DNA of 64,000 nt, from contig CANRDL010000004.1 in the NCBI GenBank assembly GCA_947629405.1, positions 4,098-68,097 on the forward strand, given 5' to 3'. Positions 5,809 through 41,826 of the stretch are shown here, piece after piece. The first letter of the stretch is position 1, and the number at the start of each line of letters is the position of its first letter. Source of the stretch: an uncultured Bacilli bacterium (GTDB lineage: Bacteria; Bacillota_I; Bacilli_A; RF39; UBA660). A program made the position numbers and the translations under genes. Under the pieces are notes generated by a model. It was not told where the DNA came from, ran no database searches, and saw only the letters and a list, made by a program, of their open reading frames with translations.

Positions 5809-5818
5809 GGAGGTAATT

Positions 5819-7309: not shown

Positions 7310-7323
7310 TTAGGAGGTTAATA

Positions 7324-13428: not shown

Positions 13429-13482
13429 AATTAGCATAGAATATTTATTTAATTTTTGCTATAATTTAATTAGGTGATAAAA

Positions 13483-15303: not shown

Positions 15304-15328
15304 TATGAAAAATATTATCTTTTTATTT
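15298..15328 (+). terminator. Rho-independent terminator of the nusB-xseAB unit
   Basis: AGATAATAT-gaaaa-ATATTATCT followed by TTTTATTT. Overlaps the xseB stop. Confidence 0.65.
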
Positions 15329-15359
15329 ACATAAAAAATTTAAAACTTTCCACAAAAAC

Positions 15360-15388
15360 TTGACTGGGGGGGGGACCTATTATATAAT
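15360..15388 (+). promoter_or_regulatory. Consensus sigma-A promoter with a G9 homopolymer in the spacer
   Basis: TTGACT (15360-15365), a 17-nt spacer whose first nine bases are G (15366-15374), then TATAAT (15383-15388). Lies 27 nt upstream of the ATG at 15415. Confidence 0.7.
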
Positions 15389-15414
15389 GCAACTAAGAAG
15401 GGAAGTAATAAAAA

Positions 15415-16623: not shown

Positions 16624-16626
16624 TTT

Positions 16627-18135
16627 ATGCAAAATAGTTATAGTGAAAATATAGTTCCTACAAATAACAATAATAACCAATCTAATGCCTCTACTATCAT
16701 TAAAACTGATTTAGGCGCTAAGGATGGTCAAAATAAATGTCCAAAATGTGGTTCTACGGATATATCTTTAAATGTTAATAATGGAAAATTAAGGTGCAAT
16801 TTTTGTAGACATGAATTTGAACCAGAAAAATTAGATAACATGCAACAAGATTTGAGTCAGTTACAAGGACAAGTGATGGGCTCTGGAGCTACTGATATTG
16901 TTGCTGATACTAAAGATATCGTGACTTTTAAATGTAGTAGTTGTGGGGCTGAAATAGTAATTGATACTGCTTCATCTACTCAAGCCAGATGTCATTGGTG
17001 TCGAAATATATTATCAGTAAATCAACAAATTTCAAATGGAAGTATACCTGATGTTGTATTACCATTTGGTATATCTAAAGATGAAGCTAAAATTGAAATT
17101 GAAAAATTTGTTGGTAAAAGAAAATTTTTTGCTCATCCTAAATTTAAACAAGAATTTACAACAGATAATATAATGGGTGTATATTTACCTTACATGATAA
17201 TTGATGCAAATGCTCATGTTAATCTCGTTGGAAATGGAGAACATTTAACAAGAACATATTATCGTGGCAGTGGAGAAAATAGAAGCACTTATTATGATGC
17301 TGATCTTTATCATGTAGAAAGAGAATTTGATTTAATAATCCAAGGTCTAACGGTTGAATCAAGTACAGAAAAATTAAATAATTCATCAGCAAATGCAACA
17401 AATAATGTTATTAATGCCATAATGCCATTTGATTTAGAAAATTGTGTTAAATTTAATGCAAATTATTTGAAAGGTTATACTTCAGAAAAGCGTGATATAA
17501 ATATTGACCAGTTAAGGCCTTTAGTAGATAAACAATCTAAAGATATAGCAAAATTTGCAGCTAACAATACTTTAAAACAATATGATCGTGGAGTTGCTTG
17601 GCATAATGAACAGCTTGATGTAAAAGGACAACAATGGAAAGCGGCATATTTACCAGTTTGGCTATATAGCTATTTACAAGTAAGTGGCGAAAAGAAAGTA
17701 TTACATTATGTTGCCGTAAATGCAAGAACTAAAGAAACAATGGGAAGTGTACCTATACATATTCCAAAATTATTAGGTATTTCCTTCTTAGTGGAAATTT
17801 TAGGGATTATAGCAATGTTATTTATAGATTTTGATTATAATTGGGCTTTTTTACTTGCAGGATTTATCTACTTCTTTGTAATGTTTACTCGTTATCGTAA
17901 TTCAAATGCCAGACATAAATATGAAACAGAGACAAAAACTAATTTAACTAATTTACGAAAAATTGATAATTTTATTAAAACGGAAACAGGATTAACAAAT
18001 TCGAGAATAAATGGAGCAAATAATACTTCGATAAGTGGTCAAGGATTAGGTAGTCAAATATTAAACTCATTTGTAGATCAAAATCCAGTTGCTAATTTAA
18101 TTAAAGATAGCACAAATCAGAAAGGAGAAAAATAA
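16627..18135 (+). CDS. YdjG-like TFIIB-type double zinc-ribbon protein with C-terminal TM hairpin
   Basis: 502 aa. Two ribbons (CPKCGS...CNFCRH and CSSCGA...CHWCRN), a globular domain of about 250 aa, two adjacent TM helices (ISFLVEILGIIAMLFIDFDYNWAFLLAGFIYFFVMF), and a polar tail. Confidence 0.6.
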   Translation: MQNSYSENIVPTNNNNNQSNASTIIKTDLGAKDGQNKCPKCGSTDISLNVNNGKLRCNFCRHEFEPEKLDNMQQDLSQLQGQVMGSGATDIVADTKDIVTFKCSSCGAEIVIDTASSTQARCHWCRNILSVNQQISNGSIPDVVLPFGISKDEAKIEIEKFVGKRKFFAHPKFKQEFTTDNIMGVYLPYMIIDANAHVNLVGNGEHLTRTYYRGSGENRSTYYDADLYHVEREFDLIIQGLTVESSTEKLNNSSANATNNVINAIMPFDLENCVKFNANYLKGYTSEKRDINIDQLRPLVDKQSKDIAKFAANNTLKQYDRGVAWHNEQLDVKGQQWKAAYLPVWLYSYLQVSGEKKVLHYVAVNARTKETMGSVPIHIPKLLGISFLVEILGIIAMLFIDFDYNWAFLLAGFIYFFVMFTRYRNSNARHKYETETKTNLTNLRKIDNFIKTETGLTNSRINGANNTSISGQGLGSQILNSFVDQNPVANLIKDSTNQKGEK

Positions 18136-19007
18136 TGAATTGTTCAAATTGTGGTACATATAACAATCCTCAATCAAAAGTTTGTATTAAATGTGGTAAT
18201 ATTTTAAATGCTGATAATCTAAATCAACCAACTGAATTAGATAAAAATATTAATTCACAACTAAATTATCAACAACTACCCCAAAATCAAATGCAACAAC
18301 CAATAAATCAGCAACCAATAAATAATGTACAAACAGTTCAATCTGCTAATGTCAGTACATCACCTTTAAATTATCTTAAATATTTAATTACTATATTACT
18401 CAAGCCATTTCAATGTTATAAGGAGGAAGAGAGTAAACTGAATAATGGAAAAAACTCTATTATACTAACATTGATTATTACGGTAATTATGACATTATTA
18501 AATTTGATTCAAACGATTATATCTACTGTAAGAGTAGTAAATTATAGTTGGACAGAAAAAAATACTTATACATGGCAATGGGACAATTTAAAAAACATAA
18601 ATTGGTTAGAAGTTATTGGTAAAAACTTTTTAATTTATATTTGTATTATTTTAGCTATTACTATTGTTTTCTATTTAGGAAGTTTAGTAGTAAAAAAACA
18701 ATTAAGTTTTATTAAATCATTATCTATATCAGCAACTTCTGTTATTCCAGCAGTATGGGGTACAATGATTTTATCACCAATATTTGGAATGATTTGGGAT
18801 AAATTAAGTTTTGTATTTATGATTATTGGTTTTATATATTCTTTAATAATATTATATGAATTTATAAATAGTGAATTAAATTTAGAAAGGGACAAAAAAA
18901 TATATTTTAATCTTATTTGCTTCGGGATACTTATTATTGCTGGATATTATGCTTATATGAAACTATTTATGAGCGGATTAGATAGTATTTTAGGATTACT
19001 TAAATAA
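18135..19007 (+). CDS. N-terminal zinc-ribbon, Q-rich linker, polytopic (Yip1-like?) membrane protein
   Basis: 290 aa. MNCSNCGT...CIKCGN ribbon, Q/N/P-rich linker, then about 5 TM helices. Its start overlaps the upstream stop (TAATG). AAAGGAGAA RBS. Confidence 0.6.
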   Translation: MNCSNCGTYNNPQSKVCIKCGNILNADNLNQPTELDKNINSQLNYQQLPQNQMQQPINQQPINNVQTVQSANVSTSPLNYLKYLITILLKPFQCYKEEESKLNNGKNSIILTLIITVIMTLLNLIQTIISTVRVVNYSWTEKNTYTWQWDNLKNINWLEVIGKNFLIYICIILAITIVFYLGSLVVKKQLSFIKSLSISATSVIPAVWGTMILSPIFGMIWDKLSFVFMIIGFIYSLIILYEFINSELNLERDKKIYFNLICFGILIIAGYYAYMKLFMSGLDSILGLLK

Positions 19008-19008
19008 T

Positions 19009-20511
19009 ATGAATAATAATTATAATAATTTAAATCAAAATAATATGAATTTGAACTATAATAATACAAATATTAATGATAATAATCAAAATATTATTTC
19101 TTCAAATAATGATTTTTCTAATGATAATAACAAATCAAAAAGAAAAAAATTACTTGTTGTTGGTATTTTATTAGTATTAGCAATAGTTTTATTTATAGGA
19201 AGTATATTTTTGAAAAGCAAAAATGCCAATATAAAAAAATCGGAAAATGTAAATCTTATATTTGATGAAGAAGCTTTAATAAAAGTAAAAAAAGATAATA
19301 AATATGGATATATAGATACAAATGGGAAATTTGTTTTAGATCCAATTTATAAAGAGGCTAAAGACTTTTATGGAAATTATACTATTGTAGAAACAAAAGA
19401 TGAAATATATCAGGTAATCGATAAAAAAGGCAAGGCTAAATTTCAAAGTAAATATGCTGCTGATATTGATTATAACTCTGAAAATAACATTTGGATACTT
19501 AATCATCAACTGTATGATAGTGCTTTAAATAAAATATCTCCCGACAATATTAATGTTCGTTATGGAAATTATGAATATTTAAAATGGGAAGATGTAAATG
19601 AGAAGTCTGCCGGAATAATTAATTCTTCTGGGAAGATTACTTATACTTATAAATATCAAAATGATGAAAATTATTTTGATATGACTCCATCAAAAATTAC
19701 TTCAATTTTAGATGAACAATATTGTATTGTAAATGTGGATAGTGGAAAATATGAAAAATATGGAATTGTAAATTGTGCTACTGGAAAATTGGTATATGAT
19801 TATTCAAAATATTATATATCAGATCGTGGTGATAATATATTTAAAATTACTAATGAAGATTCCCAGGACTCTGTATCTTTAATTTATATTAAAGATAATA
19901 AAATTGCATATCAAACTAATAGTGAAAGTGATACTTATGAGTATGATATTCTTACAAAATATATACAAATTTTTAATGAAGATAAAAATGATTATTTTTA
20001 TTTAGATATTCAAACAGGCAAAATTTTATCGGATGCTCCTAATGATGATATTAATGATGAGTGGGAAGTTTTAACTGGCATTACTAAAAAAGGTTGCGGT
20101 GAATCTTATGGTCTTGTAAAGGGAAAAAAGAAAATATTATCTTGTGAATGGGATAGTATTGATTATTTTGGAAATTTATTATATCAGTATTTAGCATCTA
20201 AGGGTAAAAAATATGTTATGACTACAAAAGATGATAAAAGCTTTATAATTAATTTAACAAATGGAGAAACGGTAGCAAAGTTTAATGCTAATAAGATTTA
20301 TAATAATGAAGAAAGTATATTTGTTTTTTATGAAGATTCTTCTATAAATAAAAAGGTTATTTATAATCTTATTACTGGAAAAACAATGGAAACTGATATT
20401 GATAATAATGTAAGACTTAACTCAAATTATATAACTATTTATGAAAACAATAAAATTAATTTCTATAATACAAATTTTAAATTAATATATTCAGCGGAGG
20501 ATGTAATATGA
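19009..20511 (+). CDS. Membrane-anchored WG-repeat (KWG-type beta-propeller-like) protein with Asn-rich N-terminus
   Basis: 500 aa. N-rich cytoplasmic head, one TM (LLVVGILLVLAIVLFIGSIFL), and repeated units of the type KYGYIDTNGKFVLDPIYKEAKDF, KYGIVNCATGKLVYDY and SYGLVKGKKKILSCEWDSIDYF. Confidence 0.6.
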   Translation: MNNNYNNLNQNNMNLNYNNTNINDNNQNIISSNNDFSNDNNKSKRKKLLVVGILLVLAIVLFIGSIFLKSKNANIKKSENVNLIFDEEALIKVKKDNKYGYIDTNGKFVLDPIYKEAKDFYGNYTIVETKDEIYQVIDKKGKAKFQSKYAADIDYNSENNIWILNHQLYDSALNKISPDNINVRYGNYEYLKWEDVNEKSAGIINSSGKITYTYKYQNDENYFDMTPSKITSILDEQYCIVNVDSGKYEKYGIVNCATGKLVYDYSKYYISDRGDNIFKITNEDSQDSVSLIYIKDNKIAYQTNSESDTYEYDILTKYIQIFNEDKNDYFYLDIQTGKILSDAPNDDINDEWEVLTGITKKGCGESYGLVKGKKKILSCEWDSIDYFGNLLYQYLASKGKKYVMTTKDDKSFIINLTNGETVAKFNANKIYNNEESIFVFYEDSSINKKVIYNLITGKTMETDIDNNVRLNSNYITIYENNKINFYNTNFKLIYSAEDVI

Positions 20512-21128
20512 ATTATATAAGAAATAAAAGAGTATTAGCTCTAACAGGAATAATAACTCTTATTTTAGGAACAATACTACCATATTTTACTTTTTCTCTT
20601 CTTGGTTATTCTCAATCAATATCTTTATGGAAATATTGGGAAGGAAAGTTAATTATAATTTTAACATTGGTAAATGCTTTATTTATATTTAAAGATTATA
20701 TTGAAAAATATCTACCACAATTATTTACAACAAATCTTGGAAAAAAAATAGCAAATTTATCAAATCCTAAAGTATCTTTAATACCAACAATATTAGTTGT
20801 AGGATTTGTTATTTACTTAAATATAAAATTTGATTTTAATACTGAATATTTAAAAAATGGTCTTGGTTTTTATTTACTATGGTTAGGCATTATATGTTTA
20901 GTGATACATGCTATTATATATAAAAAGCCATCTGAAGCATTAGATAATGTTAATCATGAATATAATAATCAAAATGTTAATGTACAACAAAATTTTCAAC
21001 AATCAGTACAATCACAAACGCAACAATTAACTCAAAATGAATTAGTAAACAAAAAATTATGTCCAAAATGTGGTAACCAAGTAGATGAAACAGCAACCCA
21101 ATGTTTTATGTGTGGAAATAAATTTTAA
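20508..21128 (+). CDS. Polytopic membrane protein with Q-rich linker and C-terminal zinc-ribbon
   Basis: 206 aa. Four or more TM helices, then NQNVNVQQNFQQSVQSQTQQLTQ, then CPKCGN...CFMCGN. Overlaps the upstream gene by 4 nt (ATGA). GGAGGA RBS. Confidence 0.6.
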   Translation: MNYIRNKRVLALTGIITLILGTILPYFTFSLLGYSQSISLWKYWEGKLIIILTLVNALFIFKDYIEKYLPQLFTTNLGKKIANLSNPKVSLIPTILVVGFVIYLNIKFDFNTEYLKNGLGFYLLWLGIICLVIHAIIYKKPSEALDNVNHEYNNQNVNVQQNFQQSVQSQTQQLTQNELVNKKLCPKCGNQVDETATQCFMCGNKF

Positions 21129-21170
21129 TATTAAATAGGAATATTCTTCCAATTATAGATTTTAAATTGA

Positions 21171-21202
21171 AAAAAGACAACCAATAATTGTCTTTTTTTT
21201 TG
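21171..21202 (+). terminator. Rho-independent terminator of the SPFH/zinc-ribbon operon
   Basis: AAAAAGACAA-ccaataa-TTGTCTTTTT followed by a T-run. Confidence 0.7.
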
Positions 21203-21237
21203 GCCTTTTTTTGCGCATAATAATAATGGTGGTCTGT

Positions 21238-22215
21238 ATGAATATAAAAAAATATATATGTTTATTATTGGTAATATTTTCCGCATTTTTTTCTTGTGGA
21301 TTTTCCAATTATGTTATCCCAGGTGGTGAAAATTTAGGTATTGAAATATCAACTGATGGTATTATGATTATTGGCTTTTATAAAGTTAATGGAAAGTTAA
21401 ATAAAGGAACTCCAGCTTTAAAAGTAGGAGATGTTATTACTAAAGTGGAAGATACAAATGTAGATAATATAGATAATTTAATAAAATTAATGGAAGAAAA
21501 AAAACAAAATGATACAGTAAATCTTACTATTAAAAGAAATAATAAATATAAAAAAATAAATTTAGAATTAAAAAAAGAAGATAATATATATAAAACAGGA
21601 TTATTTGTAAAAGATAGTATTACTGGTATAGGAACTCTTACCTATATTGATCCAAAAACTCATAAATTTGGGGCTTTAGGTCATGAAATTATTGAAAGTA
21701 ATTCTAATAAAAAAATTGAAGTTAAAACAGGCTTTATATTTAAAAGTTCGATTACTAGTATTGATCGTTCCTCAACCGGTGTGGCTGGAGGTAAAAAAGC
21801 AAAATTTTATTATGATTTTGAGTATGGAACAATAAATAAAAATACTAAATATGGAATTTATGGAACATACGAAAAAAATCTTCCTGAAAAGCAGGAAATG
21901 CAAGTAGCTAAAAATGATGAAGTAAAATTAGGAAATGCTAAAATTTACACAGTATTAAATGATGAAAAAGTTGAAGCATTTGATATTAATATTAATAAAA
22001 TAGATAAAAATCATGATATTAAAAATATTTACTTTAATATTACTTCAAAAGAATTATTAGTAAAAACTGGGGGAGTAGTTCAAGGTATGAGTGGTAGTCC
22101 AATCATTCAAGATGATAAGATTGTAGGAGCAGTTACCCATGTAATTGTCGATGATCCTAAAACTGGCTATGGAATATTTATTACCAGTATGTTAAAAGAA
22201 GGCGAGAAAAACTAA
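21238..22215 (+). CDS. spoIVB: SpoIVB peptidase (S55 sporulation signalling protease)
   Basis: Signal/TM, PDZ (LKVGDVITKVEDTNVDNIDNL), catalytic His (GALGHEI) and Ser (GMSGSPI). The ATG at 21238 has a GGTGG RBS; the track ORF starts at a TTG at 21211. Confidence 0.85.
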   Translation: MNIKKYICLLLVIFSAFFSCGFSNYVIPGGENLGIEISTDGIMIIGFYKVNGKLNKGTPALKVGDVITKVEDTNVDNIDNLIKLMEEKKQNDTVNLTIKRNNKYKKINLELKKEDNIYKTGLFVKDSITGIGTLTYIDPKTHKFGALGHEIIESNSNKKIEVKTGFIFKSSITSIDRSSTGVAGGKKAKFYYDFEYGTINKNTKYGIYGTYEKNLPEKQEMQVAKNDEVKLGNAKIYTVLNDEKVEAFDININKIDKNHDIKNIYFNITSKELLVKTGGVVQGMSGSPIIQDDKIVGAVTHVIVDDPKTGYGIFITSMLKEGEKN

Positions 22216-22273
22216 AAAGTAATGATAATTCATTACTTTTTTGATATACTTTAAGTAGCAAGAAGGGATAATT

Positions 22274-24034
22274 ATGTTCAAAGAAAAATTAAAATTAATT
22301 CCGCATTTACCAGGATCTTATCAAATGAAAAATAAAGAAGGAATTATTATTTATGTTGGTAAAGCCAAAGATTTACATAATAGAGTTAAAAGTTATTTTA
22401 CGGGTCGAGTTACAGGAAAAACTAAAGTTATGGTAAGTGAAATAGCTGATTTTGAATATATAATTACTAAAAGTGAATTAGAAGCATTTATTTTAGAAAT
22501 TAATTTAATAAAAAAATATGATCCTAAATATAATATATTACTTCGCGATGATAAAACTTATCCCTATATAGAACTTATAAAAAAACCATACCCTAAATTA
22601 AAAATTTCTCGATATAAAAAAATTAAAAATAAAAAAGATTCATATATTTTTGGTCCTTATCAAAATGCCTTTGCAGCCAGAAAAGTAGTCAAATTATTAA
22701 ATAGACTTTATCCTTTAAAAAAATGTAGTGGCAATCCTAAGAATTTATGTCTTTATTATCACATTGGTGAGTGTTTAGGATATTGTGAGAAAAAAATCGA
22801 TGAGGAAATTATCAATAAAATGCTTGAAGAAATTGCCGCTTTTTTAAAAGGTAATCAACAAGAAATAGAAGAAAAAATTATGAGTAAAATAAAGAAGTAT
22901 AGTGATGATTTAAATTATGAAGCAGCTAATGAATTATATGAAGAATTAAAATCTATAAAAATAATATTAGAAAATCAAAAATGTGAAATTAGAGATTTAA
23001 AAAATAGAGATATAATTAATTATTATTTTAATAATGGTTATTTAAGTATTCAAATTTTCTTTTTAAGAAATGGTAAAATTGTCGGATCTCATAATGATTT
23101 ATTACCGGTTATAAATGATGATATTGAAGATATTGAAAGTTATATTGTATCTTTTTATGATAAACATGAAATTCCCTCAGAAATCTTAGTTCCTGCCAAT
23201 TTTAATATTGATCTTTTAAAAAATATCCTTTCTACTAATATCTATCATCCTCAAAAAGGAGTAAAAAGAGATTTAATAAATATGGTTTATGATAATGCTA
23301 AGATAAATTATGAAAATAAAATAAAACTAATTTTAGCCAAAGATCAAAAAAATAATGATGCTTTGAATGAATTGAAAAAGATTTTAAATATGGATATTAT
23401 TGATACGATTGAAATATTTGATAATTCTACAATTTTTGGTAATTTTAATGTTTCGGGAATGGTAGTTTTTAAAAATGGTGTTCCTTATAAAAATGGTTAT
23501 CGCAAATTTAAACTTATGGAAGAATTTAAAAGTGATTATGATATGATGAAAGAAGTAATATATAGAAGATATTATCGACTTTTAATTGAACAAAAACCAC
23601 TTCCTAATTTAATTATTGTTGATGGGGGAATTATTCAAATTAATGCGGCTTGTGAAGTTTTAAAAAGTTTAAATTTAAATATTAAAGTTATTGGTCTAAA
23701 GAAAAATGATAAACATAAAACAAGTGAATTACTTGATAGTGATGGTCACATTATTAATATTGATCCGCATAGTAATTTATTTCATTTATTAACTTTTATG
23801 CAAGATGAAGTTCATAATTTCACCATTTCTTATCATAGACAAATTAGATCTAAAGGTTCAATTGCTAGTATTTTAGATGAAGTACCAGGAATAGGTAATG
23901 TAAGAAAAAAAGAATTAATTAAGAAATTTAAAAATATCAATAATTTAAAAAATGCGGAAATATCTGAAATAGCAAAAATAGTTCCTGAAAATATAGCTTT
24001 GAATTTAAAAAAATATTTGGAAAATCGAAAATAG
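22274..24034 (+). CDS. uvrC: Excinuclease ABC subunit C
   Basis: 586 aa. GIY-YIG N-terminus (PGSYQMKNKEGIIIYVGKAKDLHNRVKSYF), a UVR domain, and an endonuclease V-like plus (HhH)2 C-terminus. Confidence 0.95.
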   Translation: MFKEKLKLIPHLPGSYQMKNKEGIIIYVGKAKDLHNRVKSYFTGRVTGKTKVMVSEIADFEYIITKSELEAFILEINLIKKYDPKYNILLRDDKTYPYIELIKKPYPKLKISRYKKIKNKKDSYIFGPYQNAFAARKVVKLLNRLYPLKKCSGNPKNLCLYYHIGECLGYCEKKIDEEIINKMLEEIAAFLKGNQQEIEEKIMSKIKKYSDDLNYEAANELYEELKSIKIILENQKCEIRDLKNRDIINYYFNNGYLSIQIFFLRNGKIVGSHNDLLPVINDDIEDIESYIVSFYDKHEIPSEILVPANFNIDLLKNILSTNIYHPQKGVKRDLINMVYDNAKINYENKIKLILAKDQKNNDALNELKKILNMDIIDTIEIFDNSTIFGNFNVSGMVVFKNGVPYKNGYRKFKLMEEFKSDYDMMKEVIYRRYYRLLIEQKPLPNLIIVDGGIIQINAACEVLKSLNLNIKVIGLKKNDKHKTSELLDSDGHIINIDPHSNLFHLLTFMQDEVHNFTISYHRQIRSKGSIASILDEVPGIGNVRKKELIKKFKNINNLKNAEISEIAKIVPENIALNLKKYLENRK

Positions 24035-32822: not shown

Positions 32823-33728
32823 ATGAGTAGTTTAAATCTTACAATACCTACATTTAGTCAGATATTACATTCGGAAGGAAATTCTAACAAATGGAATACA
32901 AACTTAATGTATGAAATAGAATATGCTGTAGTGACTGATTTTGCGGCTCTACAAGGTACATTAGCAACAGATGTTTGTCCTAAAAATGATAAAGATTTAG
33001 GATATAGATTAGGTATTTATTGGCTAAAAGATCCATATACTTATTTGGATAAAAATAATAATGAAGCAAATTATGTTCGAGTTATAAATGCTGCTGGCTT
33101 CTTTCGTGAAAAAGTTTCAGAGCGTCATATTGGAATTCGTCCTATTTTACCATATTCTTCAATTAAAGATATTACTTTTAATGAAGAAGAAAGAAAATAT
33201 AAATTAACTAATAGTGAGTTTTCATTATTCCCTCAAAGAACTCCAGAACAAGGTTTGCAAGAAGAAATTATAGGAAGAATTAAACATAACGAACTTAAAA
33301 AAACATCACTAAGAGTACCAATTGATTTAAGAAATATTGATGAAAATAATTTACCATTTAAATTAGGATGGTTAGATTCATATATTTATCAAGATAAAAT
33401 ATATACTTTTTTTAAAGCTAAACCATGTGAAGATTATTTAGCAACCAATGGAGTGACTTATCATGTAGGAGATGAAGTAGTTGTAGAAATGTTACCAATA
33501 AGATTATTAAATTCTCCCAAAAATGATTTAACATTTTTTAAGGATATAATTATTGGCGAAATACAGTTTGATAGAGAAAATTATTTAGGTGATTTTTCAA
33601 CAACAAATTTATATACTTATATTAATAAATATTTAGTTCCTTTTATTAGACAGGGAATAGAATTTAATAAAACAGCAGAAACGGAAGTAATTAAACAAAA
33701 AACAAAAAGTAGACATACAAAAAAATGA
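32823..33728 (+). CDS. Hypothetical protein; N-terminal domain resembles a widespread Firmicute domain of unknown function (TDFA..QG ... YWL ... IRP motif set)
   Basis: 301 aa with no signal peptide. Motifs YAVVTDFAALQG, GIYWLKD and HIGIRPILPYS. Family assignment (possibly DUF6273) is from memory only. Confidence 0.45.
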   Translation: MSSLNLTIPTFSQILHSEGNSNKWNTNLMYEIEYAVVTDFAALQGTLATDVCPKNDKDLGYRLGIYWLKDPYTYLDKNNNEANYVRVINAAGFFREKVSERHIGIRPILPYSSIKDITFNEEERKYKLTNSEFSLFPQRTPEQGLQEEIIGRIKHNELKKTSLRVPIDLRNIDENNLPFKLGWLDSYIYQDKIYTFFKAKPCEDYLATNGVTYHVGDEVVVEMLPIRLLNSPKNDLTFFKDIIIGEIQFDRENYLGDFSTTNLYTYINKYLVPFIRQGIEFNKTAETEVIKQKTKSRHTKK

Positions 33729-36299: not shown

Positions 36300-36340
36300 T
36301 TTATAAAAAAATATTATATAATTATATTAGGGTGGTAATA

Positions 36341-37735
36341 ATGAAAGATGTTGTAATTATTGGAGCAGGTCCAGCTGGTTTATTTGCAGCTTATGAACTT
36401 TGTAAAAATAAAAATTTAAAGATTACCTTACTTGATAAAGGAAAAAGAGCTAAAAATAGAGTTTGTCCTATGAAAATAAATGGTGGAAAATGTTTAAATT
36501 GCAACCCTTGTAATATTTTATCAGGCTTTGGGGGAGCTGGTACTTTTAGTGATGGTAAATTAAATTTTATTCCTAAACTTGGTAAAAGTGATTTATTTAA
36601 ATATATGGATAGTGATGAGGCTTTTAAAATAATTGATGAAACTGAAAAAATATTTAATGAATTTAATATGGATAGTGAAATATTTCCTAAAAATTTAGAT
36701 AAAGCATATCAAATTCAAAGGGATATTGCTAAAACTGGAGCAAGACTTCTCCTTATTAAACAAAAACATTTAGGTAGTGATAAATTACCTAATTATATTA
36801 ACAATTTTGAAAATTATTTAGAAAAAAAAGGTGTAGAATTACTTGATGATTGCAATGTTTTAGATATTAAAAGTGAAAGTTGTAAACTACACGAAATAAC
36901 TTATAATAAAAATAATAAAGAATATAAAATAAAAACTAAAAATGTTATTGTTGCTCCTGGTCGAACTGGGGCTAAATGGGTACAAGAACTGGCTGATAAA
37001 TACAATATTGAATATGTCTCTAAATCTATTGAAATAGGGGTAAGAGTAGAAGTTAGAAAAGAAATAATGGAAGATATATGTTCAACTATTTATGATCCTA
37101 CAATTTTTATTAAAACTAAAACATATAATGATGAAATAAGAACATTTTGTACTAATCCTGGTGGTTTTGTTGCTAAAGAAAATTATTATGGTTATATTTG
37201 TGTAAATGGTCATGCCTTAAAGGATATTAAATCAGCTAATTCTAATTTTGCTTTTATTTCCAAAGTAGGTTTAACCGAGCCAGTAACTAATACGAGAGAA
37301 TATGGTGAATCAATTGCGCATATTGCCAATGTTTTAGGAGATTCTAAACCAGTTATTCAAACATTAAGAGATTTAAGATTGGGAAGAAGATCAACTTGGG
37401 ATCACATTAATAAAGGCTTTATTTCTCCAACTTTAAAAGATTGTGTAGCAGGAGATCTTGCTTTAATTTTACCTCATCGAATAATTACTAATATTTTAGA
37501 AGGTTTAGAAGAATTAGACAAAATTATTCCGGGAGTTAATAATGATGAAACTCTATTATATGGTCCAGAAATAAAATTTTTTAGTAATGAAATAACTACT
37601 GATAACAAATTTAAATTGAATAATTATAATATTTATTTTGTCGGTGATGGTGCTGGAAAAGCCGGTAACATTGTAACTTCAGCAGCGACTGGTTTAATTG
37701 CAGCTAAAGATATTTTAAGTAAATTGACAAAATAA
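36341..37735 (+). CDS. FAD-dependent oxidoreductase (COG2509-type uncharacterised FAD-dependent dehydrogenase)
   Basis: Rossmann motif VVIIGAGPAGLFAA at the N-terminus, a Cys cluster (CPMKINGGKCLNCNPC), and C-terminal FVGDGAGKAG. Confidence 0.75.
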   Translation: MKDVVIIGAGPAGLFAAYELCKNKNLKITLLDKGKRAKNRVCPMKINGGKCLNCNPCNILSGFGGAGTFSDGKLNFIPKLGKSDLFKYMDSDEAFKIIDETEKIFNEFNMDSEIFPKNLDKAYQIQRDIAKTGARLLLIKQKHLGSDKLPNYINNFENYLEKKGVELLDDCNVLDIKSESCKLHEITYNKNNKEYKIKTKNVIVAPGRTGAKWVQELADKYNIEYVSKSIEIGVRVEVRKEIMEDICSTIYDPTIFIKTKTYNDEIRTFCTNPGGFVAKENYYGYICVNGHALKDIKSANSNFAFISKVGLTEPVTNTREYGESIAHIANVLGDSKPVIQTLRDLRLGRRSTWDHINKGFISPTLKDCVAGDLALILPHRIITNILEGLEELDKIIPGVNNDETLLYGPEIKFFSNEITTDNKFKLNNYNIYFVGDGAGKAGNIVTSAATGLIAAKDILSKLTK

Positions 37736-37785
37736 AAAAAATAAACTACAATTATTTTAGTATAAGAATAAAGGGGTTATATATT

Positions 37786-38541
37786 ATGGCCAAAGAAGGA
37801 AAAATTGTTTGTGTAACATCAGCTAAAGGAGGGGTAGGTAAAACTATATTTTCTATTAATTTAGCTGGAGTTTTAGAAACATTAAATAAAAAAGTATTAA
37901 TTTTAGATTTAGATTTAGCTGGGGGTGGAATAGCCCTTGCTTTGTCATGCGAATATAAAAAAGATTTATATAATATTTATGAAGATTTAAACAACAATAA
38001 ATTTAGTGACATAAAAAAATATATTACTAAGTATGATAACAAAATTGATTTTATTGCAGCTCCTAAAGATCCGCGTAATGCCAAAAAAATAGATGGTAGG
38101 TATCTAAAATTTATTTTTGATAATTTATCATACTTATATGATGCCATTATTGTTGATACTAATCACTTTTTAACTGATGCAACATTAGTTACTTTAGATC
38201 TTGCTGATAATATATTTTTTATGATGACAAATGATCCATTTGATGTTAAAAATATGAAATCTCTATTAAGTATTTTTAGAGAACTTGATAAAGATAATTA
38301 TAAAATTATTTTAAATGACGCTATTGATCATTGTAAAAATTATTTTTCATTTTATGATCTTCGAAGCATAATAAAAAGTAATATAGATTATACTTTATCT
38401 CCTGCATCATATGTTAAAAACATCGATACCTTAGTTTTAAATGGCAAAATTGTAACTTTAGATAAAGTTTATAAAGCATCTCGCGATTATGGTGTATATT
38501 TGAAAATAGCGACAAATATTTTTGAAAAAGAGGAGGAATAA
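37786..38541 (+). CDS. MinD/ParA-superfamily ATPase, TadZ/CpaE-like (no receiver domain)
   Basis: 251 aa. Deviant Walker A VTSAKGGVGKT and Walker B-like IIVDTN. First gene of the Tad-like cluster. Confidence 0.7.
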   Translation: MAKEGKIVCVTSAKGGVGKTIFSINLAGVLETLNKKVLILDLDLAGGGIALALSCEYKKDLYNIYEDLNNNKFSDIKKYITKYDNKIDFIAAPKDPRNAKKIDGRYLKFIFDNLSYLYDAIIVDTNHFLTDATLVTLDLADNIFFMMTNDPFDVKNMKSLLSIFRELDKDNYKIILNDAIDHCKNYFSFYDLRSIIKSNIDYTLSPASYVKNIDTLVLNGKIVTLDKVYKASRDYGVYLKIATNIFEKEEE

Positions 38542-38544
38542 AAA

Positions 38545-39765
38545 ATGAATAATACTTTAGCTGATGTATTTGAGGTAAAAAATAATAATGATTACAATAA
38601 TGTATCTGATTATGATGCTTTTAAAGATAAGAAATTATTAAATGAAATTCGCGTTAATATTTTAACAAATATTTCTGATATTAATGAGGATTCATTAACA
38701 CAAGATTTAATAAATGGAATTGTTGAAAAAGAGTTAAATAAACATGATTTATCTAATTTAGAAAGAAGCTACGTTTATAATTTAATTGATAATGAGGTAA
38801 ATGGTTGTGGACCGATTACTGAATTATTAAAAGATCCTATTATTTCCGAAATAATGGTTAATAGTCCAAGTGAAATTTATATTGAATCTAATGGGAAAAT
38901 ATTAAAAGATGACAGTGTGTCTTTTATAGATGATAATCATATAATTAGAACGGTTAATAAATTAATTGAAGATACTAATTTAATTTTAGACTTAGAACAT
39001 CCTTTAATTGATACCAGAATTAAAGATGGTTCACATATAAATGCTGTCATTCCCCCAATATCTGTAAAGGGACCAATATTTACAATTAAAAAAGTAAATA
39101 AAAATATTATGAATATAAATGATTTAATTAGATTAGGTACTTTAACTTCCAAAATGGCTAATTTTTTAGAAGAGGCCGTAAAATCTAAATTAAATATCAT
39201 AGTTTGTGGTAATTCAAATAGTGGTAAAAATACATTATTAAATATTTTATGTGGTTTTATTCCTGAAGATGAAAGAATTGTAACAATTGAAGATAATGCT
39301 TTTTTGAGTTTATCTCAAAAAAATGTTGTCGCTTTAGAAGAAAATAATATTAACAAAAAAAATTATAATTCTAATTTAATAACATTAGCTAAAAAATTAA
39401 AACCTAATAGGGTAATAATTGGTGGAATTAATAAAGAAAATACATTTGATATTTTACAATTAATGAATACTGGTTTTTGTACTATGACATCAATGCATGC
39501 TGGAAGTGTTAAAGATGTCTTATCAATAATTTCTACTAATGTTTTATTAAATGGTATAGATGTACCAAGTAGTGTTATAAAAGAGTATATGTGTTCAGGA
39601 ATTGATTTAATTGTCAATATCGATATTTTAAAAGATGGAAGTAGAAAAGTTACTTCAATAAGCAAAATTATAAAAACAAATGGTGTATTTCAAATTGCTG
39701 AAATTTTTGCATATAAGAAAAATAAAAATGATGAAAATGGCGAATTTGTAAGTTATAAATTATAA
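38545..39765 (+). CDS. CpaF/TadA-family secretion ATPase homologue with substituted catalytic motifs
   Basis: 406 aa, collinear with CpaF. Walker A is GNSNSGKN (Asn where T/S is expected). The Walker B region is PNRVIIGGINK versus canonical PDRIIVGEVRG. The His box is NTGF versus NTGH. The Asp-box is TIEDNAFL versus TIEDxAEL. Confidence 0.7.
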   Translation: MNNTLADVFEVKNNNDYNNVSDYDAFKDKKLLNEIRVNILTNISDINEDSLTQDLINGIVEKELNKHDLSNLERSYVYNLIDNEVNGCGPITELLKDPIISEIMVNSPSEIYIESNGKILKDDSVSFIDDNHIIRTVNKLIEDTNLILDLEHPLIDTRIKDGSHINAVIPPISVKGPIFTIKKVNKNIMNINDLIRLGTLTSKMANFLEEAVKSKLNIIVCGNSNSGKNTLLNILCGFIPEDERIVTIEDNAFLSLSQKNVVALEENNINKKNYNSNLITLAKKLKPNRVIIGGINKENTFDILQLMNTGFCTMTSMHAGSVKDVLSIISTNVLLNGIDVPSSVIKEYMCSGIDLIVNIDILKDGSRKVTSISKIIKTNGVFQIAEIFAYKKNKNDENGEFVSYKL

Positions 39766-39795: not shown

Positions 39796-40791
39796 ATGAA
39801 TTTAAAAATATTAATAGTATTATTTATTGCTTTAATAATGATTATCTATTTATTAAAAAATTGGATAGATGTAAAAAAAATTAATAAATATGAAAATAGA
39901 TTTTCTCTTTTTTCTTATGGATTAAATCAGGATGAAAATTTAAAATATTATGAAAGACTTAAATATTATTTTATTAAACATTTAAAAATTATCTCTGTTG
40001 TTTTAGAAAAATTTAAATTTTTTAGAAAATATTCAAATAAATATAAGAAATTTGAAAATTCTAAAAGTGACATGAAAAAAATAGATTATGTTTCTTTAAA
40101 ATTTTTTATTACTTTGGTATTTTTATTTTTGGTAATTATATTTAATATTTTTAAAATACTACCTTATTCATTAATTTTAAGTTTATTTATTATAATATTT
40201 GGCTTTTATTTTTTAGATATTATTCTCTTACTTAAATATCATAAAATTAAAATAGATTTAGAAAGTGATTTATATAAAGCCATCCAAATTATAAATACTA
40301 ATTTAAAAACCAAGAGTATAACTACTTCAATTTTGGAAGTGACTAAAAAATTAGATGGCCCAATAAAAAATGAATTTAAAATAATATATAAGGAATTGAA
40401 AAGGGGCATTTCAGTTGATGAAGCTTTTAAAAAATTTTACAAGAAATATAAAATTAAAATGGTTAAAAACATTTATTTACTTATTATAATGACTGATGAT
40501 AATAATTCCAATTACCAAGAATTATTTTCGAATCTAGAACTTCGTTTAAAAGAACAAGAAAAATTTGTTGATAGTATGTCTCTTTCCAAAGTTACGACCT
40601 TAATCTTATTTTTATTTTTTTCTATATTACCAATTTTGATGATAATAATAATATTGAATATAAAGAAAACTTACTTTGATGCTTTTTTTAATACTTATGC
40701 CGGAATAATTAGTTTAATAGTATTGCTTGCAATATATATTGTATATATAAGAGAAATGATAAAATTGATTGGTGATGATGATTATGAGTAG
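39796..40791 (+). CDS. TadB-like type II secretion system F-domain membrane protein
   Basis: 331 aa. N-terminal TM, a central TM pair, a T2SSF-like helical domain (LYKAIQIINTNLKTKSITTSILEV...ELKRGISVDEAFKKF), and C-terminal TMs. Confidence 0.6.
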   Translation: MNLKILIVLFIALIMIIYLLKNWIDVKKINKYENRFSLFSYGLNQDENLKYYERLKYYFIKHLKIISVVLEKFKFFRKYSNKYKKFENSKSDMKKIDYVSLKFFITLVFLFLVIIFNIFKILPYSLILSLFIIIFGFYFLDIILLLKYHKIKIDLESDLYKAIQIINTNLKTKSITTSILEVTKKLDGPIKNEFKIIYKELKRGISVDEAFKKFYKKYKIKMVKNIYLLIIMTDDNNSNYQELFSNLELRLKEQEKFVDSMSLSKVTTLILFLFFSILPILMIIIILNIKKTYFDAFFNTYAGIISLIVLLAIYIVYIREMIKLIGDDDYE

Positions 40792-41236
40792 AAAAAAATT
40801 AACTAGTTTAGAATATCAAGGTTATTATTTTACTGAAGCGTTATTAGTGAATTTACAAACTAATAATTTAATTAATTCTCTTTATTATGTTTGTAATCAT
40901 ATTGATTGTAAATTATCTAAAGAAATTTATAAAGCTTTAAAAGGCCTTGAAAATGGTATGAATTTTAAAGAAAGTTTCACTAATTTAAAAAATAAATTTC
41001 AATCAAAATATATCATAAATTTAATTAATTTATTAATTAAAAATAAACAAAAAGAAAAAACATTATATAAAGAATTAAGCGAATTTTGCACTAAATATTC
41101 TAAAGATATAATAATAAATGAAAAGAATAAAAGTAATGATTTACCTCTAAAAATTGCTATATTTTCTATGTTATTTATTGTTCCAATAATAATTTTAATA
41201 ATAAGTTTACCTATAATTATTGAAAAGTTTTTTTAA
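40784..41236 (+). CDS. TadC-like T2SSF-domain membrane protein (short)
   Basis: About 150 aa. Helical domain (ALKGLENGMNFKESFTNL) and a C-terminal TM. Overlaps the upstream gene by 8 nt. Confidence 0.5.
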   Translation: MSRKKLTSLEYQGYYFTEALLVNLQTNNLINSLYYVCNHIDCKLSKEIYKALKGLENGMNFKESFTNLKNKFQSKYIINLINLLIKNKQKEKTLYKELSEFCTKYSKDIIINEKNKSNDLPLKIAIFSMLFIVPIIILIISLPIIIEKFF

Positions 41237-41271: not shown

Positions 41272-41826
41272 ATGAAGAAAAACAAAAACAAAAATAAAAA
41301 TAAATTAAATCAAAAAATATTTATTTTGATAATTATACTTATATTTGTAATTGTTGGGTCAATTACATTAACATATGGTTTTTATGCATCTAAATTTGAT
41401 ACTAAAATAAGTCCTGTTAATATTAGTTCAACCGTTAAAAATTTTTCATTAGATTATTCTGAAGGAACTCCAACAATAAATGAACCTGATATTTTACCGG
41501 GATGGTCTGCTAAAAAAACTGTTACTATTACTAATTCAAATAGTTCATCAGCAACTTACAGTTTAGTATTTAAAAAACTTTCAAATGGCTTTACAAATGG
41601 AGACTTAGTATATTCTGGAACTTGTAAATCTGGGGGAGCTACTGTTAAAACAATTTCTGAAACTGCTGTACCAGCAAGTGGTACTGATTTGAAAATTGCT
41701 GAAAGTATAGCTATAGATGGAAGTGCCACTCATACATGCGATATAACTTTTAAATTTAAAGAAACTAATAGTGATCAAAGTACTAATAAAGGTAAAACAT
41801 TTACTGCTACATTAGGAATTGCCTAA
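41272..41826 (+). CDS. Secreted/anchored beta-rich protein with TasA/camelysin-like (SipW-type) N-terminal signal motif; candidate fibre subunit
   Basis: 184 aa. KN-repeat N-terminus and an h-region ending GSITLTYGFYASKFDT (compare the TasA-class GGTFAYFSD). S/T/N-rich body with PGWSAKKTVTITNSN, like TasA's PGDK...ENNGS strand. Terminal gene of the Tad-like operon. Confidence 0.4.
   Translation: MKKNKNKNKNKLNQKIFILIIILIFVIVGSITLTYGFYASKFDTKISPVNISSTVKNFSLDYSEGTPTINEPDILPGWSAKKTVTITNSNSSSATYSLVFKKLSNGFTNGDLVYSGTCKSGGATVKTISETAVPASGTDLKIAESIAIDGSATHTCDITFKFKETNSDQSTNKGKTFTATLGIA

What the first reader, a model, noticed from the sequence alone, without database searches (positions are those of the whole stretch)
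39208..39480. The TadA/CpaF homologue has lost most of its catalytic signature residues
The protein aligns collinearly with CpaF-type ATPases, but four key positions differ. Walker A reads GNSNSGKN-T, with Asn where the Mg-coordinating Thr/Ser of GxxxxGK[ST] is expected. The Asp-box region reads TIEDNAFL, so the Glu of AEL is now Phe. The Walker B region reads PNRVIIGGINK against the canonical PDRIIVGEVRG, so the Asp is Asn, the catalytic Glu is Gly and the Arg is Asn. The His box reads NTGF against NTGH. The ORF is full length and its neighbours are intact. It therefore looks like a pseudo-ATPase kept for a structural or regulatory role, or the first step of decay of the whole module. The adjacent TadZ-like protein keeps an intact KGGVGKT motif.
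Basis: partly seen in the sequence, partly recalled or inferred. Interest (0 to 1): 0.6.

Follow-up and report, generated by a model that had tools for sequence, protein, structure and literature searches.

The report
Conserved catalytically dead Tad pilus ATPase
A gut bacterium keeps, under clear purifying selection, a full-length copy of the Tad pilus motor ATPase that has lost nearly every residue needed to split ATP. It sits in a cut-down pilus gene cluster that probably no longer builds a pilus.

Summary
The gene at 38545..39765 (+) encodes a 406-aa CpaF/TadA homologue that aligns collinearly with the solved C. crescentus CpaF. It lacks the Mg-binding Thr (N229), the Asp-box Glu (F253), the catalytic Walker B Glu (G294), R359 (N296), the first His-box His (F311), and two of the three arginine fingers (R223 to H164, R347 to K284). 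Its platform-contacting central loop is also rewritten. It keeps the P-loop Lys, R217, the gamma-phosphate His H382 and the adenine-binding Arg.

All 118 nearest relatives are canonical. One sister species, 71% identical, shares every loss. There the protein is fused to TadZ.

This is not neutral decay:
- dN/dS between the two species is 0.22.
- Strain variation is 16 synonymous against 4 non-synonymous sites.

Constraint is nevertheless relaxed about 2.5-fold, mainly in the ATPase domain. TadB and TadC evolve even faster and have lost conserved glycines. Flp, TadE and TadF genes are absent from the locus. TadZ is unchanged.

Best reading: a non-catalytic ring subunit kept in a reduced, TadZ-associated Tad remnant. 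I could not test whether a second active ATPase exists elsewhere in the genome.

The parts
37724..37752 (+). Best sigma-70-like promoter match (TTGACA-17-TACAAT, 11/12), 34 nt upstream of tadZ.
   Evidence: It is the top-scoring site in 35.8-43.6 kb. Promoter-like sites as a class are at chance frequency in this AT-rich DNA, so this is suggestive only.
37786..38541 (+). TadZ/CpaE-like MinD/ParA-family ATPase, 251 aa. The deviant Walker A KGGVGKT, the DLDL motif and the Walker B DT are all intact.
   Evidence: Pfam AAA_31, ParA and CbiA hits. The alignment with canonical TadZ shows the motifs unchanged. It is 40-50% identical to canonical TadZ, the same as canonical proteins are to each other (43-53%). 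dN/dS is 0.17. In the sister species it is fused in frame to CpaF*.
38545..39765 (+). CpaF* : a full-fold, catalytically degenerate CpaF/TadA homologue, 406 aa.
   Evidence: Pfam T2SSE 2e-33. PDB CpaF E 1e-57. AF2 model pLDDT 79.7, TM 0.71 to 8rkd_A. dN/dS 0.22. Strain sites 16 synonymous to 4 non-synonymous. Strong SD sequence AAGAGGAGGAA.
39010..39036 (+). NTD arginine-finger segment DTRIKDGSH. D215 and R217 are kept (D156, R158). R223 is replaced by H164.
   Evidence: Residue roles come from PMC11300603 and PMC12019362.
39208..39234 (+). Walker A GNSNSGKNT. The GxxxxGK frame and the Lys are kept. The Mg-coordinating Thr is replaced by N229.
39286..39306 (+). Asp box IEDNAFL. The Mg-coordinating Glu (E312) is replaced by F253.
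39337..39375 (+). Rewritten and shortened central (pore) loop. Conserved TR becomes EN, EGSG becomes KNYN, and there is a 4-aa deletion. This is the lowest-confidence part of the model.
   Evidence: Alignment. pLDDT is below 50 at residues 270-275. In C. crescentus, mutating this loop abolishes Tad function.
39388..39435 (+). Alpha-9 helix and Walker B, AKKLKPNRVIIGGINK. The trans arginine finger R347 becomes K284, the catalytic E357 becomes G294, and R359 becomes N296.
   Evidence: The E357A mutant is non-functional but still assembles.
39466..39504 (+). His box NTGFCTMTSMHAG. The first His (H374) becomes F311. The second His (H382, the gamma-phosphate contact) is kept as H318.
39796..40791 (+). 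TadB-like platform protein, 331 aa, fast-evolving. The conserved KTGGN and FKSGR glycines are lost.
   Evidence: Pfam T2SSF E 1e-5. Alignment. It is 25-28% identical to canonical TadB, against 40-46% among canonical proteins. dN/dS is 0.50.
40784..41236 (+). TadC-like platform protein, truncated to 150 aa (canonical about 234 aa). It lacks the N-terminal TM segment, and the ESGRNL glycine is lost.
   Evidence: Pfam T2SSF E 1e-5. Alignment. dN/dS is 0.62.
41272..41826 (+). p184: a small TasA/camelysin-like secreted or surface protein. It lies next to the Tad remnant only in the two degenerate-clade genomes.
   Evidence: 1253 relatives found. Of 35 relatives, 23 hit PF12389. The family profile hits TasA 5of1 at E 0.0024. 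The family HMM hits only the window and L001 among nine Tad loci. Strain pN/pS is about 1.

Best explanation
CpaF* is a non-catalytic descendant of a Tad (Flp) pilus motor ATPase.

Shown:
- It keeps the three-helix bundle, the NTD and the RecA-like CTD.
- It keeps the hinge glycines, the Loop-8 Asp, the GxxxxGK frame with its Lys, one arginine finger, the gamma-phosphate His and the adenine-binding Arg.
- It has lost both Mg ligands (Thr to Asn, Glu to Phe), the water-activating Glu (to Gly), R359, two of the three arginine fingers and the central loop that engages the platform.
- The partner platform proteins TadB and TadC have lost conserved glycines, which I tentatively equate with the CpaF-contacting tips described for CpaG/CpaH. 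They evolve 2.5-4 times faster than normal relative to TadZ.
- Flp, TadE and TadF genes are gone from the locus.
- TadZ, an intact MinD/ParA-type ATPase, evolves at its normal rate and is fused to CpaF* in the sister species.
- CpaF* is still under purifying selection, so it does something.

Inferred:
- It can no longer hydrolyse ATP or drive a rotary pilus motor. It probably still folds, oligomerises and perhaps binds nucleotide.
- It is retained as a structural or regulatory partner of TadZ on a reduced TadB/TadC membrane anchor. This is a pilus-less Tad remnant whose output is unknown.
For: Catalytic losses:
- They are placed by profile alignment against solved CpaF and by 118 canonical relatives that all retain the residues.
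- Residue roles come from the two CpaF structure papers. K287 and T288, E312 and E357 act in Mg binding and catalysis. R217, R223 and R347 are the arginine fingers. H382 contacts the gamma-phosphate.
- The E357A mutant is dead yet expressed and hexameric, and K287A has no ATPase activity.

Fold: retained. pLDDT is 79.7, and the top PDB hit is CpaF with TM 0.71.

Shared with a second species: P0002, 71% identical, has all the substitutions. Its locus has the same synteny.

Selection:
- dN/dS is 0.22, against 0.08 for the flanking FAD enzyme and 0.17 for TadZ.
- Three strain haplotypes carry 16 synonymous and 4 non-synonymous sites, with none at a motif. Binomial p = 1e-8.

Relaxation specific to the motor and platform:
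- CpaF is 47-49% identical to canonical proteins, against 71-72% among canonical proteins. TadZ shows no such drop.
- The CpaF/TadZ dN ratio is 1.3, against about 0.5 in canonical pairs.
- The CTD/NTD dN ratio is 1.65, against 0.66-0.87.
- Of 197 near-invariant columns, 60 are changed in both sequences. They are enriched in the CTD, p = 0.005.

Module reduction:
- Canonical loci carry Flp, TadE and TadF, sometimes with the A24 peptidase. The window locus does not.
- TadC is truncated and the TadB/TadC glycines are lost.

Partly eroded relatives:
- Relatives with reduced loci show partial erosion. L019 has R359K and H374Y. L022 has R347K and R359L.

Expression signals are intact.
Against: - No biochemical data exist. 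Loss of activity is inferred from residue identity alone.
- Only two species carry the state, so conservation of the derived residues (73% identical) is no greater than for the protein as a whole (71%).
- Constraint is clearly relaxed and erosion continues: a TadC TM deletion and a shorter CpaF* C terminus in the window lineage, and TadB/TadC dN/dS of 0.5-0.6. The complex may therefore be on a slow path to loss.
- I could not see the rest of the genome. A second active secretion ATPase, a prepilin peptidase and Flp genes may exist elsewhere. Three pilin-like genes with intact class III signal peptides sit at 4600-7788.
- The proposed TadZ partnership rests on gene order and one fusion, and the fused ORF may still be translated from its internal start.
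Confidence: 0.6

Rival explanations
1. Adaptor or regulator for a second, active ATPase. CpaF* still docks on TadB/TadC. It recruits or gates another PilT/VirB11-type ATPase encoded elsewhere in the genome, so type IV filaments are still made. This would parallel inactivated PilT, which still supports PilU-dependent pilus function.
For: - Three pilin-like genes with intact G(-1)/E(+5) prepilin signals lie at 4600-7788. Their N termini resemble Tad-linked pilins of the canonical relative L009.
- Inactivated Walker A or Walker B variants of PilT give PilU-dependent phenotypes, and a natural PilT R206S variant exists.
- CpaF* is under purifying selection.
Against: - There is no other T2SSE-family gene in the 64-kb window.
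- The central loop and the TadB/TadC glycine tips, the likely motor-platform contact, are rewritten on both sides. This argues against a preserved docking geometry.
- No prepilin peptidase or Flp gene was found in the window.
- The rest of the genome could not be examined.
Confidence: 0.2
2. Non-functional relic. The whole Tad module is dead and is simply decaying slowly. The apparent constraint would be residual, or due to selection on translation of downstream genes.
For: - Constraint is relaxed about 2.5-4 fold on CpaF, TadB and TadC relative to TadZ.
- Lineage-specific truncations occur in TadC and at the CpaF* C terminus.
- TadB strain polymorphism is about 5 non-synonymous to 3-4 synonymous sites.
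- The pilin genes are missing from the locus.
Against: - pN is 0.157 against pS of 0.488 over 405 codons between the two species.
- Strain sites are 16 synonymous to 4 non-synonymous, p = 1e-8.
- There are no stop codons or frameshifts in more than 20 contigs from two species, despite 23% GC and dS of about 0.8.
- Polar effects on downstream genes would not constrain amino-acid replacements.
- TadZ is under normal constraint.
Confidence: 0.12
3. CpaF* is still an active ATPase with a rewired active site, for example Asn229 coordinating the metal and another acidic residue acting as the catalytic base.
For: The P-loop frame GxxxxGK, R158, H318, R367 and E249-D250 are all retained, so nucleotide binding is plausible.
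Against: - Three residues that act together (T288, E312, E357) are replaced by Asn, Phe and Gly.
- R223, R347 and R359 are replaced as well.
- The single mutants E357A and K287A already abolish function or activity in CpaF.
- No new acidic residue appears near the site in the alignment.
- Ser/Thr to Asn at this P-loop position is the classic Mg-binding-defective change. Ras S17N is the example; this comes from my own knowledge and was not tested here.
Confidence: 0.04
4. Assembly or sequencing artefact, or a mis-aligned motif register.
For: None found.
Against: - The same protein occurs in NCBI, ENA and Logan assemblies on many contigs and in many samples.
- A second species carries the same substitutions on 7 contigs.
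- Two independent alignment methods agree on the register.
Confidence: 0.01

Closest known systems
CpaF/TadA, the bifunctional Tad pilus motor ATPase (C. crescentus CpaF, PDB 8rkd/9e24; A. actinomycetemcomitans TadA)
   Same: The proteins are collinear over residues 14-402 (E 1e-57). They share the 3HB-NTD-RecA-like CTD fold (TM 0.71). The operon order TadZ-CpaF-TadB-TadC is the same. Retained residues are K287, R217, D215, H382, R431, D208 and the hinge glycines.
   Different: CpaF* lacks T288, E312, E357, R359, H374, R223, R347 and the EGSG central loop. It has a shorter C terminus. No Flp, TadE or TadF genes are in the locus. It evolves about 2.5 times faster than canonical relatives, with the ATPase domain now the faster half.
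Canonical CpaF of related uncultured gut Bacilli (for example P0011, 'Candidatus Ventrenecus sp.'; loci L009-L011, L020)
   Same: They are 47-50% identical. The TadZ orthologue is equally diverged, so the loci are homologous. They share the low-GC, spore-former background.
   Different: All 118 relatives keep every catalytic residue. Their loci carry Flp-like pilin (KGQALVEY), TadE and TadF, a full-length TadC, and sometimes the A24 peptidase.
Inactivated PilT supporting PilU-dependent pilus function, and the natural PilT R206S of V. cholerae MO10 (PMC6762196)
   Same: These are PilT/VirB11-family proteins without full ATPase function that still contribute to a machine. There is natural loss of the Arg next to Walker B, which I take to be the equivalent of R359.
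   Different: Those cases are single substitutions in otherwise intact motors, and they need a second ATPase encoded next door. Here about ten active-site residues are gone, and no partner secretion ATPase is visible.
TadZ/CpaE, the MinD/ParA-like Tad component usually regarded as the non-motor, localising NTPase of the system (from my own knowledge)
   Same: It is a nucleotide-binding-fold protein in the Tad cluster with an organising rather than a motor role. This is the kind of role proposed here for CpaF*.
   Different: It belongs to a different superfamily. In this locus TadZ is the component whose ATPase motifs are intact.
T4P-linked secretion of proteins from the TasA-like Bsa matrix operon in Clostridium perfringens (PMC11580942)
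   Same: A type IV filament gene set in a Gram-positive spore former is functionally linked to a TasA-family matrix operon. Here a TasA/camelysin-like gene directly follows tadC.
   Different: In C. perfringens the T4P system is complete and active, and the bsa operon with SipW is a separate locus. Here no SipW is seen and the ATPase is dead. The link is by adjacency only.

Membership tests
PilT/VirB11-like secretion ATPases (Pfam PF00437 T2SSE), CpaF/TadA branch | Profile match above the curated threshold, and best solved relative is CpaF | tested here: met
   PF00437 scores 116 bits against a cut-off of 24.9. CpaF 9e24/8rkd matches at E 1e-57. No NCBIfam equivalog cut-off is reached; TIGR03819 scores 171 bits against 373.
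PilT/VirB11-like secretion ATPases, CpaF/TadA branch | Three-helix bundle, NTD and RecA-like CTD fold | tested here: met
   AF2 model pLDDT 79.7. Foldseek top hits are CpaF (TM 0.71), then FlaI and archaeal GspE.
PilT/VirB11-like secretion ATPases, CpaF/TadA branch | Walker A GxxxxGK[ST] | tested here: not met
   The motif reads GNSNSGKN. The Lys is kept and the Thr/Ser is Asn, in both species.
PilT/VirB11-like secretion ATPases, CpaF/TadA branch | Asp-box Glu coordinating Mg (E312) | tested here: not met
   It is F253 in both species. All 118 of 118 relatives have Glu.
PilT/VirB11-like secretion ATPases, CpaF/TadA branch | Atypical Walker B hhhhGE with the catalytic Glu (E357) | tested here: not met
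   The motif reads VIIGG, with G294 in both species.
PilT/VirB11-like secretion ATPases, CpaF/TadA branch | His box with a pair of histidines | tested here: inconclusive
   The first His is F311. The second His (H382, the gamma-phosphate contact) is kept as H318.
PilT/VirB11-like secretion ATPases, CpaF/TadA branch | Arginine fingers R217, R223 and trans R347 | tested here: not met
   R158 is kept. R223 is H164 and R347 is K284, in both species.
PilT/VirB11-like secretion ATPases, CpaF/TadA branch | Mg-dependent ATP hydrolysis and hexamer formation | not testable with these tools
   This needs purified protein.
Tad (Flp) pilus system | TadZ/CpaE, CpaF and a TadB/TadC platform encoded together | tested here: met
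   The T2SSF matches are marginal (25.9 and 26.0 bits against a cut-off of 25.2). TadC is truncated.
Tad (Flp) pilus system | Flp prepilin and TadE/TadF pseudopilins | tested here: not met
   They are present in canonical relatives. None was found in the window by tblastn or by a six-frame motif search. The rest of the genome was not seen.
Tad (Flp) pilus system | Prepilin peptidase (TadV/A24) | tested here: not met
   There was no tblastn hit with the L011 A24 protein. No A24 hit appeared in the Pfam scans of most ORFs of at least 120 aa. It is absent from the window only, and a few 3'-end ORFs were not scanned.
Pseudoenzyme (conserved non-catalytic homologue of an enzyme) | Catalytic residues lost while fold and length are retained | tested here: met
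Pseudoenzyme (conserved non-catalytic homologue of an enzyme) | Purifying selection acting after the loss, in more than one lineage | tested here: met
   Two species share the loss. dN/dS is 0.22. Strain sites are 16 synonymous to 4 non-synonymous. Only two lineages exist in 5.8 billion protein clusters.
Pseudoenzyme (conserved non-catalytic homologue of an enzyme) | Demonstrated lack of activity and a demonstrated alternative role | not testable with these tools
   This needs biochemistry and genetics in an uncultured organism.

The most novel reading that the evidence does not exclude
The TadZ-CpaF*-TadB-TadC remnant is a new kind of type-IV-filament-derived membrane complex that works without motor ATP hydrolysis. 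One possibility is a TadZ (MinD/ParA)-driven positioning or anchoring platform co-opted for the adjacent, rapidly diversifying TasA/camelysin-like surface protein p184. That gene is next to the Tad genes only in the two genomes with the dead ATPase.
Probability: 0.1. Interest if true: 0.75.

Novelty: new variant of a known kind. Interest (0 to 1): 0.45.

Why it matters
Secretion and pilus ATPases of the PilT/VirB11 family are treated as obligate motors. The CpaF structure papers argue that the catalytic mechanism applies broadly across orthologues.

A naturally occurring CpaF with about ten active-site residues replaced, yet maintained by selection, shows that the ring can outlive its motor function. 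It offers a natural separation-of-function allele for asking what CpaF does besides hydrolysing ATP, for example scaffolding, TadZ binding or platform stabilisation.

The apparent series also suggests an order of events when a type IV filament machine is dismantled or co-opted. The series runs from canonical loci, through pilin-less loci with R347, R359 or H374 changes (L019, L022), to the fully dead clade.

There is a practical consequence. Genome annotation pipelines will call this gene 'CpaF family protein' and infer a working Tad pilus in these rabbit-gut Bacilli. That inference is probably wrong.

Tried and rejected
1. An alternative motif register. HMMER and MAFFT agree, so none exists.
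2. A second T2SSE ATPase in the window. tblastn with a canonical CpaF finds only this gene.
3. More members of the degenerate clade.
   - The 5.8-billion-cluster search gave only the window's own cluster and P0002 above 50% identity.
   - The GTDB genome scan found only the P0002 MAG.
   - The JGI metagenome scan found nothing closer than 45%.
   - The TadZ search found no third lineage either; the next TadZ is 56% identical.
4. L022 as the sister 'intermediate'. The TadZ tree places L019, not L022, nearest the degenerate clade. The 'series' is therefore a trend across lineages, not a resolved pathway.
5. 'Burst then stasis'. Crude branch partitioning suggests a similar acceleration of about 2.5-2.8 fold before and after the species split (my arithmetic on the distances). 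Changed-invariant sites are no more conserved between the two species (73%) than the whole protein (71%). I therefore do not claim neofunctionalising selection.
6. Strain-level pN/pS for the pilin-like genes. This was rejected as biased, because contigs were retrieved by exact protein identity.
7. The p184 fold. Foldseek gave only weak jelly-roll and beta-sandwich hits, with the TasA fibre at rank 18 and E 6e-3. The TasA/camelysin assignment rests on sequence profiles only.
8. Literature. Searches found no described catalytically dead CpaF/TadA. Absence from this library is not proof of absence.
Full report
**What is there.** The finding lies inside a 1221-nt ORF, window 38545..39765 (+), 406 aa. 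The surrounding DNA is about 23% GC and the context is housekeeping and sporulation genes.
- Pfam assigns the protein to T2SSE (PF00437, 2e-33).
- The best solved relative is the Tad pilus motor CpaF of Caulobacter crescentus (9e24/8rkd, E 1e-57), aligned collinearly over query residues 14-402.
- The gene order is: TadZ-like MinD/ParA ATPase (37786..38541), this gene, TadB-like (39796..40791), a short TadC-like (40784..41236), a 184-aa secreted protein (41272..41826), then spoIIGA-sigE.
- It is the only PilT/VirB11-family gene in the 64-kb window.

**Checking the observation.** I mapped the residues using C. crescentus numbering and the residue roles described in the two CpaF structure papers (PMC11300603 and PMC12019362).

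Lost:
- T288 to N229 (Mg ligand)
- E312 to F253 (Asp-box Mg ligand)
- E357 to G294 (catalytic Glu; the E357A mutant is non-functional although expressed and hexameric)
- R359 to N296
- H374 to F311
- R223 to H164 (NTD arginine finger)
- R347 to K284 (trans arginine finger)
- R241 to K182
- P-loop G282 and G284 to Asn

Kept:
- the GxxxxGK frame with K287 (K228; K287A abolishes ATPase activity)
- D215 and R217
- the gamma-phosphate His H382 (H318)
- the adenine-binding R431 (R367)
- the Loop-8 Asp D208 (D149)
- the hinge glycines

The central loop is rewritten. This loop contacts the platform proteins, and mutating it (E331K/G332A/S333A/G334A) abolishes function. In CpaF* it reads KNYN, is four residues shorter, and is the least confident part of the model. 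The pattern is therefore that binding elements are mostly kept, while catalysis, transition-state and coupling elements are lost. The AF2 model (pLDDT 79.7) retains the full CpaF fold, with TM 0.71 to 8rkd_A.

**Is it a private accident?** No.
- The identical protein and three variants differing by at most 2 aa occur on more than 20 contigs from independent samples.
- The only other protein above 50% identity in a 5.8-billion-cluster database is P0002, at 71% identity.
- P0002 comes from a rabbit-gut MAG, 'uncultured Bacilli bacterium Lapin-016__bin23'.
- It has the same substitutions: GNSGAGKN, IEDNAFL, PNRVIIGGVTK, NSGF, DGSH, AKKLKP and TIKK.
- Its locus has the same synteny: FAD enzyme, TadZ, CpaF*, TadB, TadC and a p184 homologue.
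- There the tadZ stop codon is lost, so TadZ and CpaF* form one 668-aa ORF, seen on 7 contigs.
- All 118 next-closest relatives (47-50% identity) retain every one of these residues.

**Selection.**
- Between the two species (NG86, dS about 0.8), dN/dS is 0.08 for the flanking FAD enzyme, 0.17 for TadZ and 0.22 for CpaF* (NTD 0.17, CTD 0.27). It is 0.50 for TadB, 0.62 for TadC and 0.61 for p184.
- Among three strain haplotypes, CpaF* has 20 segregating sites: 16 synonymous and 4 non-synonymous (I119T, S214T, S321I, I328V), with none at a motif. Neutral expectation is about 80% non-synonymous, giving p = 1e-8.
- The strain set comes from a 90% identity cluster, so it is not biased toward identical proteins.
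- The gene is therefore maintained by purifying selection in its degenerate state.

**Constraint is relaxed, and not only in CpaF.**
- TadZ of the window is 40-50% identical to canonical TadZ proteins. This equals the spread among canonical lineages (43-53%), so the lineage is not unusually old.
- CpaF drops from 71-72% (canonical against canonical) to 47-49%. TadB drops from 40-46% to 25-28%. TadC drops from 51-56% to 26-31%.
- The CpaF/TadZ dN ratio is about 0.5 in canonical pairs and 1.3 within the degenerate pair.
- The ATPase domain evolves more slowly than the N-terminal half in canonical pairs (ratio 0.66-0.87) but faster in the degenerate pair (1.65).
- Of 197 columns at least 98% conserved in canonical relatives, 60 are changed in both degenerate sequences. 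These fall at 43 of 111 CTD columns against 17 of 86 NTD columns, p = 0.005.

**The module is reduced.**
- Canonical relatives carry a Flp-like pilin (…KGQALVEY…), TadE and a TadF-like gene immediately upstream of tadZ. They have a 234-aa TadC, and sometimes N-methyl pilins and the A24 prepilin peptidase.
- In the window, tadZ follows an FAD-dependent oxidoreductase. No Flp, TadE or TadF gene was found by tblastn or a six-frame motif search. No A24 gene was found by tblastn or in the Pfam scans of most ORFs.
- TadC has lost its first TM segment.
- TadB and TadC have lost conserved glycines: KTGGN to DDNNSN, FKSGR to LKT-K, and ESGRNL to QTN-NL. [quoted passage not shown]
- TadZ keeps KGGVGKT, DLDL and DT exactly as canonical TadZ does.
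- A near-consensus promoter precedes tadZ, and strong Shine-Dalgarno sequences precede tadZ, cpaF* and tadB.

**Relatives with partial erosion.**
- L019 is the nearest lineage by TadZ (56-57% identity). It has no TadE or TadF gene immediately upstream of tadZ; its contig is only 3.4 kb. Its CpaF has R359K and H374Y, but the catalytic core is intact.
- L022 also lacks adjacent pilin genes. Its CpaF has R347K and R359L with an intact core.
- This suggests that uncoupling from the pilin genes and erosion of peripheral active-site residues came before complete catalytic loss. The phylogeny is not resolved well enough to call it a pathway.

**Mechanism.**
- Shown: catalytic and coupling residues are lost, the fold is retained, purifying selection acts, motor and platform are relaxed together, TadZ is unchanged, and TadZ is fused to CpaF* in the sister species.
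- Inferred: CpaF* cannot hydrolyse ATP or drive pilin insertion or extraction. It probably still oligomerises and may bind nucleotide. It is kept as a structural or regulatory partner of TadZ on a reduced TadB/TadC anchor.
- The main rival is that it serves as an adaptor for a second ATPase encoded elsewhere. The precedent is inactivated PilT, which gives PilU-dependent phenotypes, and the natural PilT R206S variant. Three pilin-like genes with intact prepilin signals at 4600-7788 keep that option open. I could not inspect the rest of the genome.
- Pure decay and a rewired active enzyme are both unlikely, for the reasons given above.

**Known or new.** Tad loci in Firmicutes are well known. 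Pseudoenzymes are common in general. I found no description of a naturally dead CpaF/TadA. I rate this a new variant of a known kind. It is restricted to two uncultured species, and that limits both its reach and its testability.

Noticed in passing
window 41272-41826 (+): p184, directly after tadC, belongs to a large family (1253 representatives) whose members often match Pfam Peptidase_M73 (camelysin/TasA). In longer members this domain sits N-terminal to LRR or Listeria-Bacteroides repeats. Among strains it shows pN/pS of about 1 plus indels, and one strain has a 149-aa form. Among nine Tad loci examined, the family HMM hits only the window and the sister species.
   Followed up: partly
L001 1585-3591 (sister species, GCA_947627975.1): tadZ and cpaF* are fused into one 668-aa ORF by loss of the tadZ stop codon. 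The window reads GAA TAA AAA ATG and L001 reads GAA AAT AAT ATG. The fusion is seen on 7 contigs. An internal SD-like AAAGGGG remains, so separate translation is still possible.
   Followed up: partly
window 4600-7788 (+): Three consecutive pilin-like genes of 402, 496 and 154 aa sit 30 kb from the Tad remnant. The last two have class III signal peptides (KRGFVFVE, KKGLTLIE); the first has a similar KKGF N terminus without the Glu. Their N termini resemble Tad-linked pilins of the canonical relative L009. The 496-aa gene is only about 87% identical at the nucleotide level, with indels, in some strains (L017, L018).
   Followed up: partly
window 40784-41236 against L001 4604-5203: The window's TadC lacks about 49 N-terminal codons, including a TM helix, that are still present in the sister species. 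The window's CpaF* is also about 10 aa shorter at its C terminus than the sister's. Erosion has therefore continued since the two species split.
   Followed up: yes
L019 1565-2887; L022 5974-7290: Two other gut-Bacilli Tad loci have no TadE or TadF genes immediately upstream of tadZ (the L019 contig is only 3.4 kb). Their CpaF proteins have partial active-site changes (L019: GEIKG and NTGY; L022: SLKMRPDR and GELLG) but intact Walker A Thr, Asp-box Glu and catalytic Glu.
   Followed up: partly
window 32823-33728 (+): A 301-aa protein with no Pfam or NCBIfam match shows unusually high non-synonymous strain variation: 23 non-synonymous against 17 synonymous differences, and 95.6% nucleotide identity where the neighbours are 97-99%.
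   Followed up: no
L003 7797-9191 (strain contig; equivalent to window 36332-37735): In one strain the FAD-dependent oxidoreductase upstream of tadZ is called as two ORFs (207 and 222 aa) instead of one of 464 aa. This suggests a strain-specific disruption.
   Followed up: no
window 13474-24034 compared with L009 and L010: In canonical relatives the Tad locus sits next to uvrC (L009) or just before nusB-xseA-xseB-spoIVB (L010). The window has nusB, xseA, spoIVB and uvrC at 13.5-24 kb without Tad genes beside them. The Tad remnant is therefore probably in a different chromosomal position.
   Followed up: no
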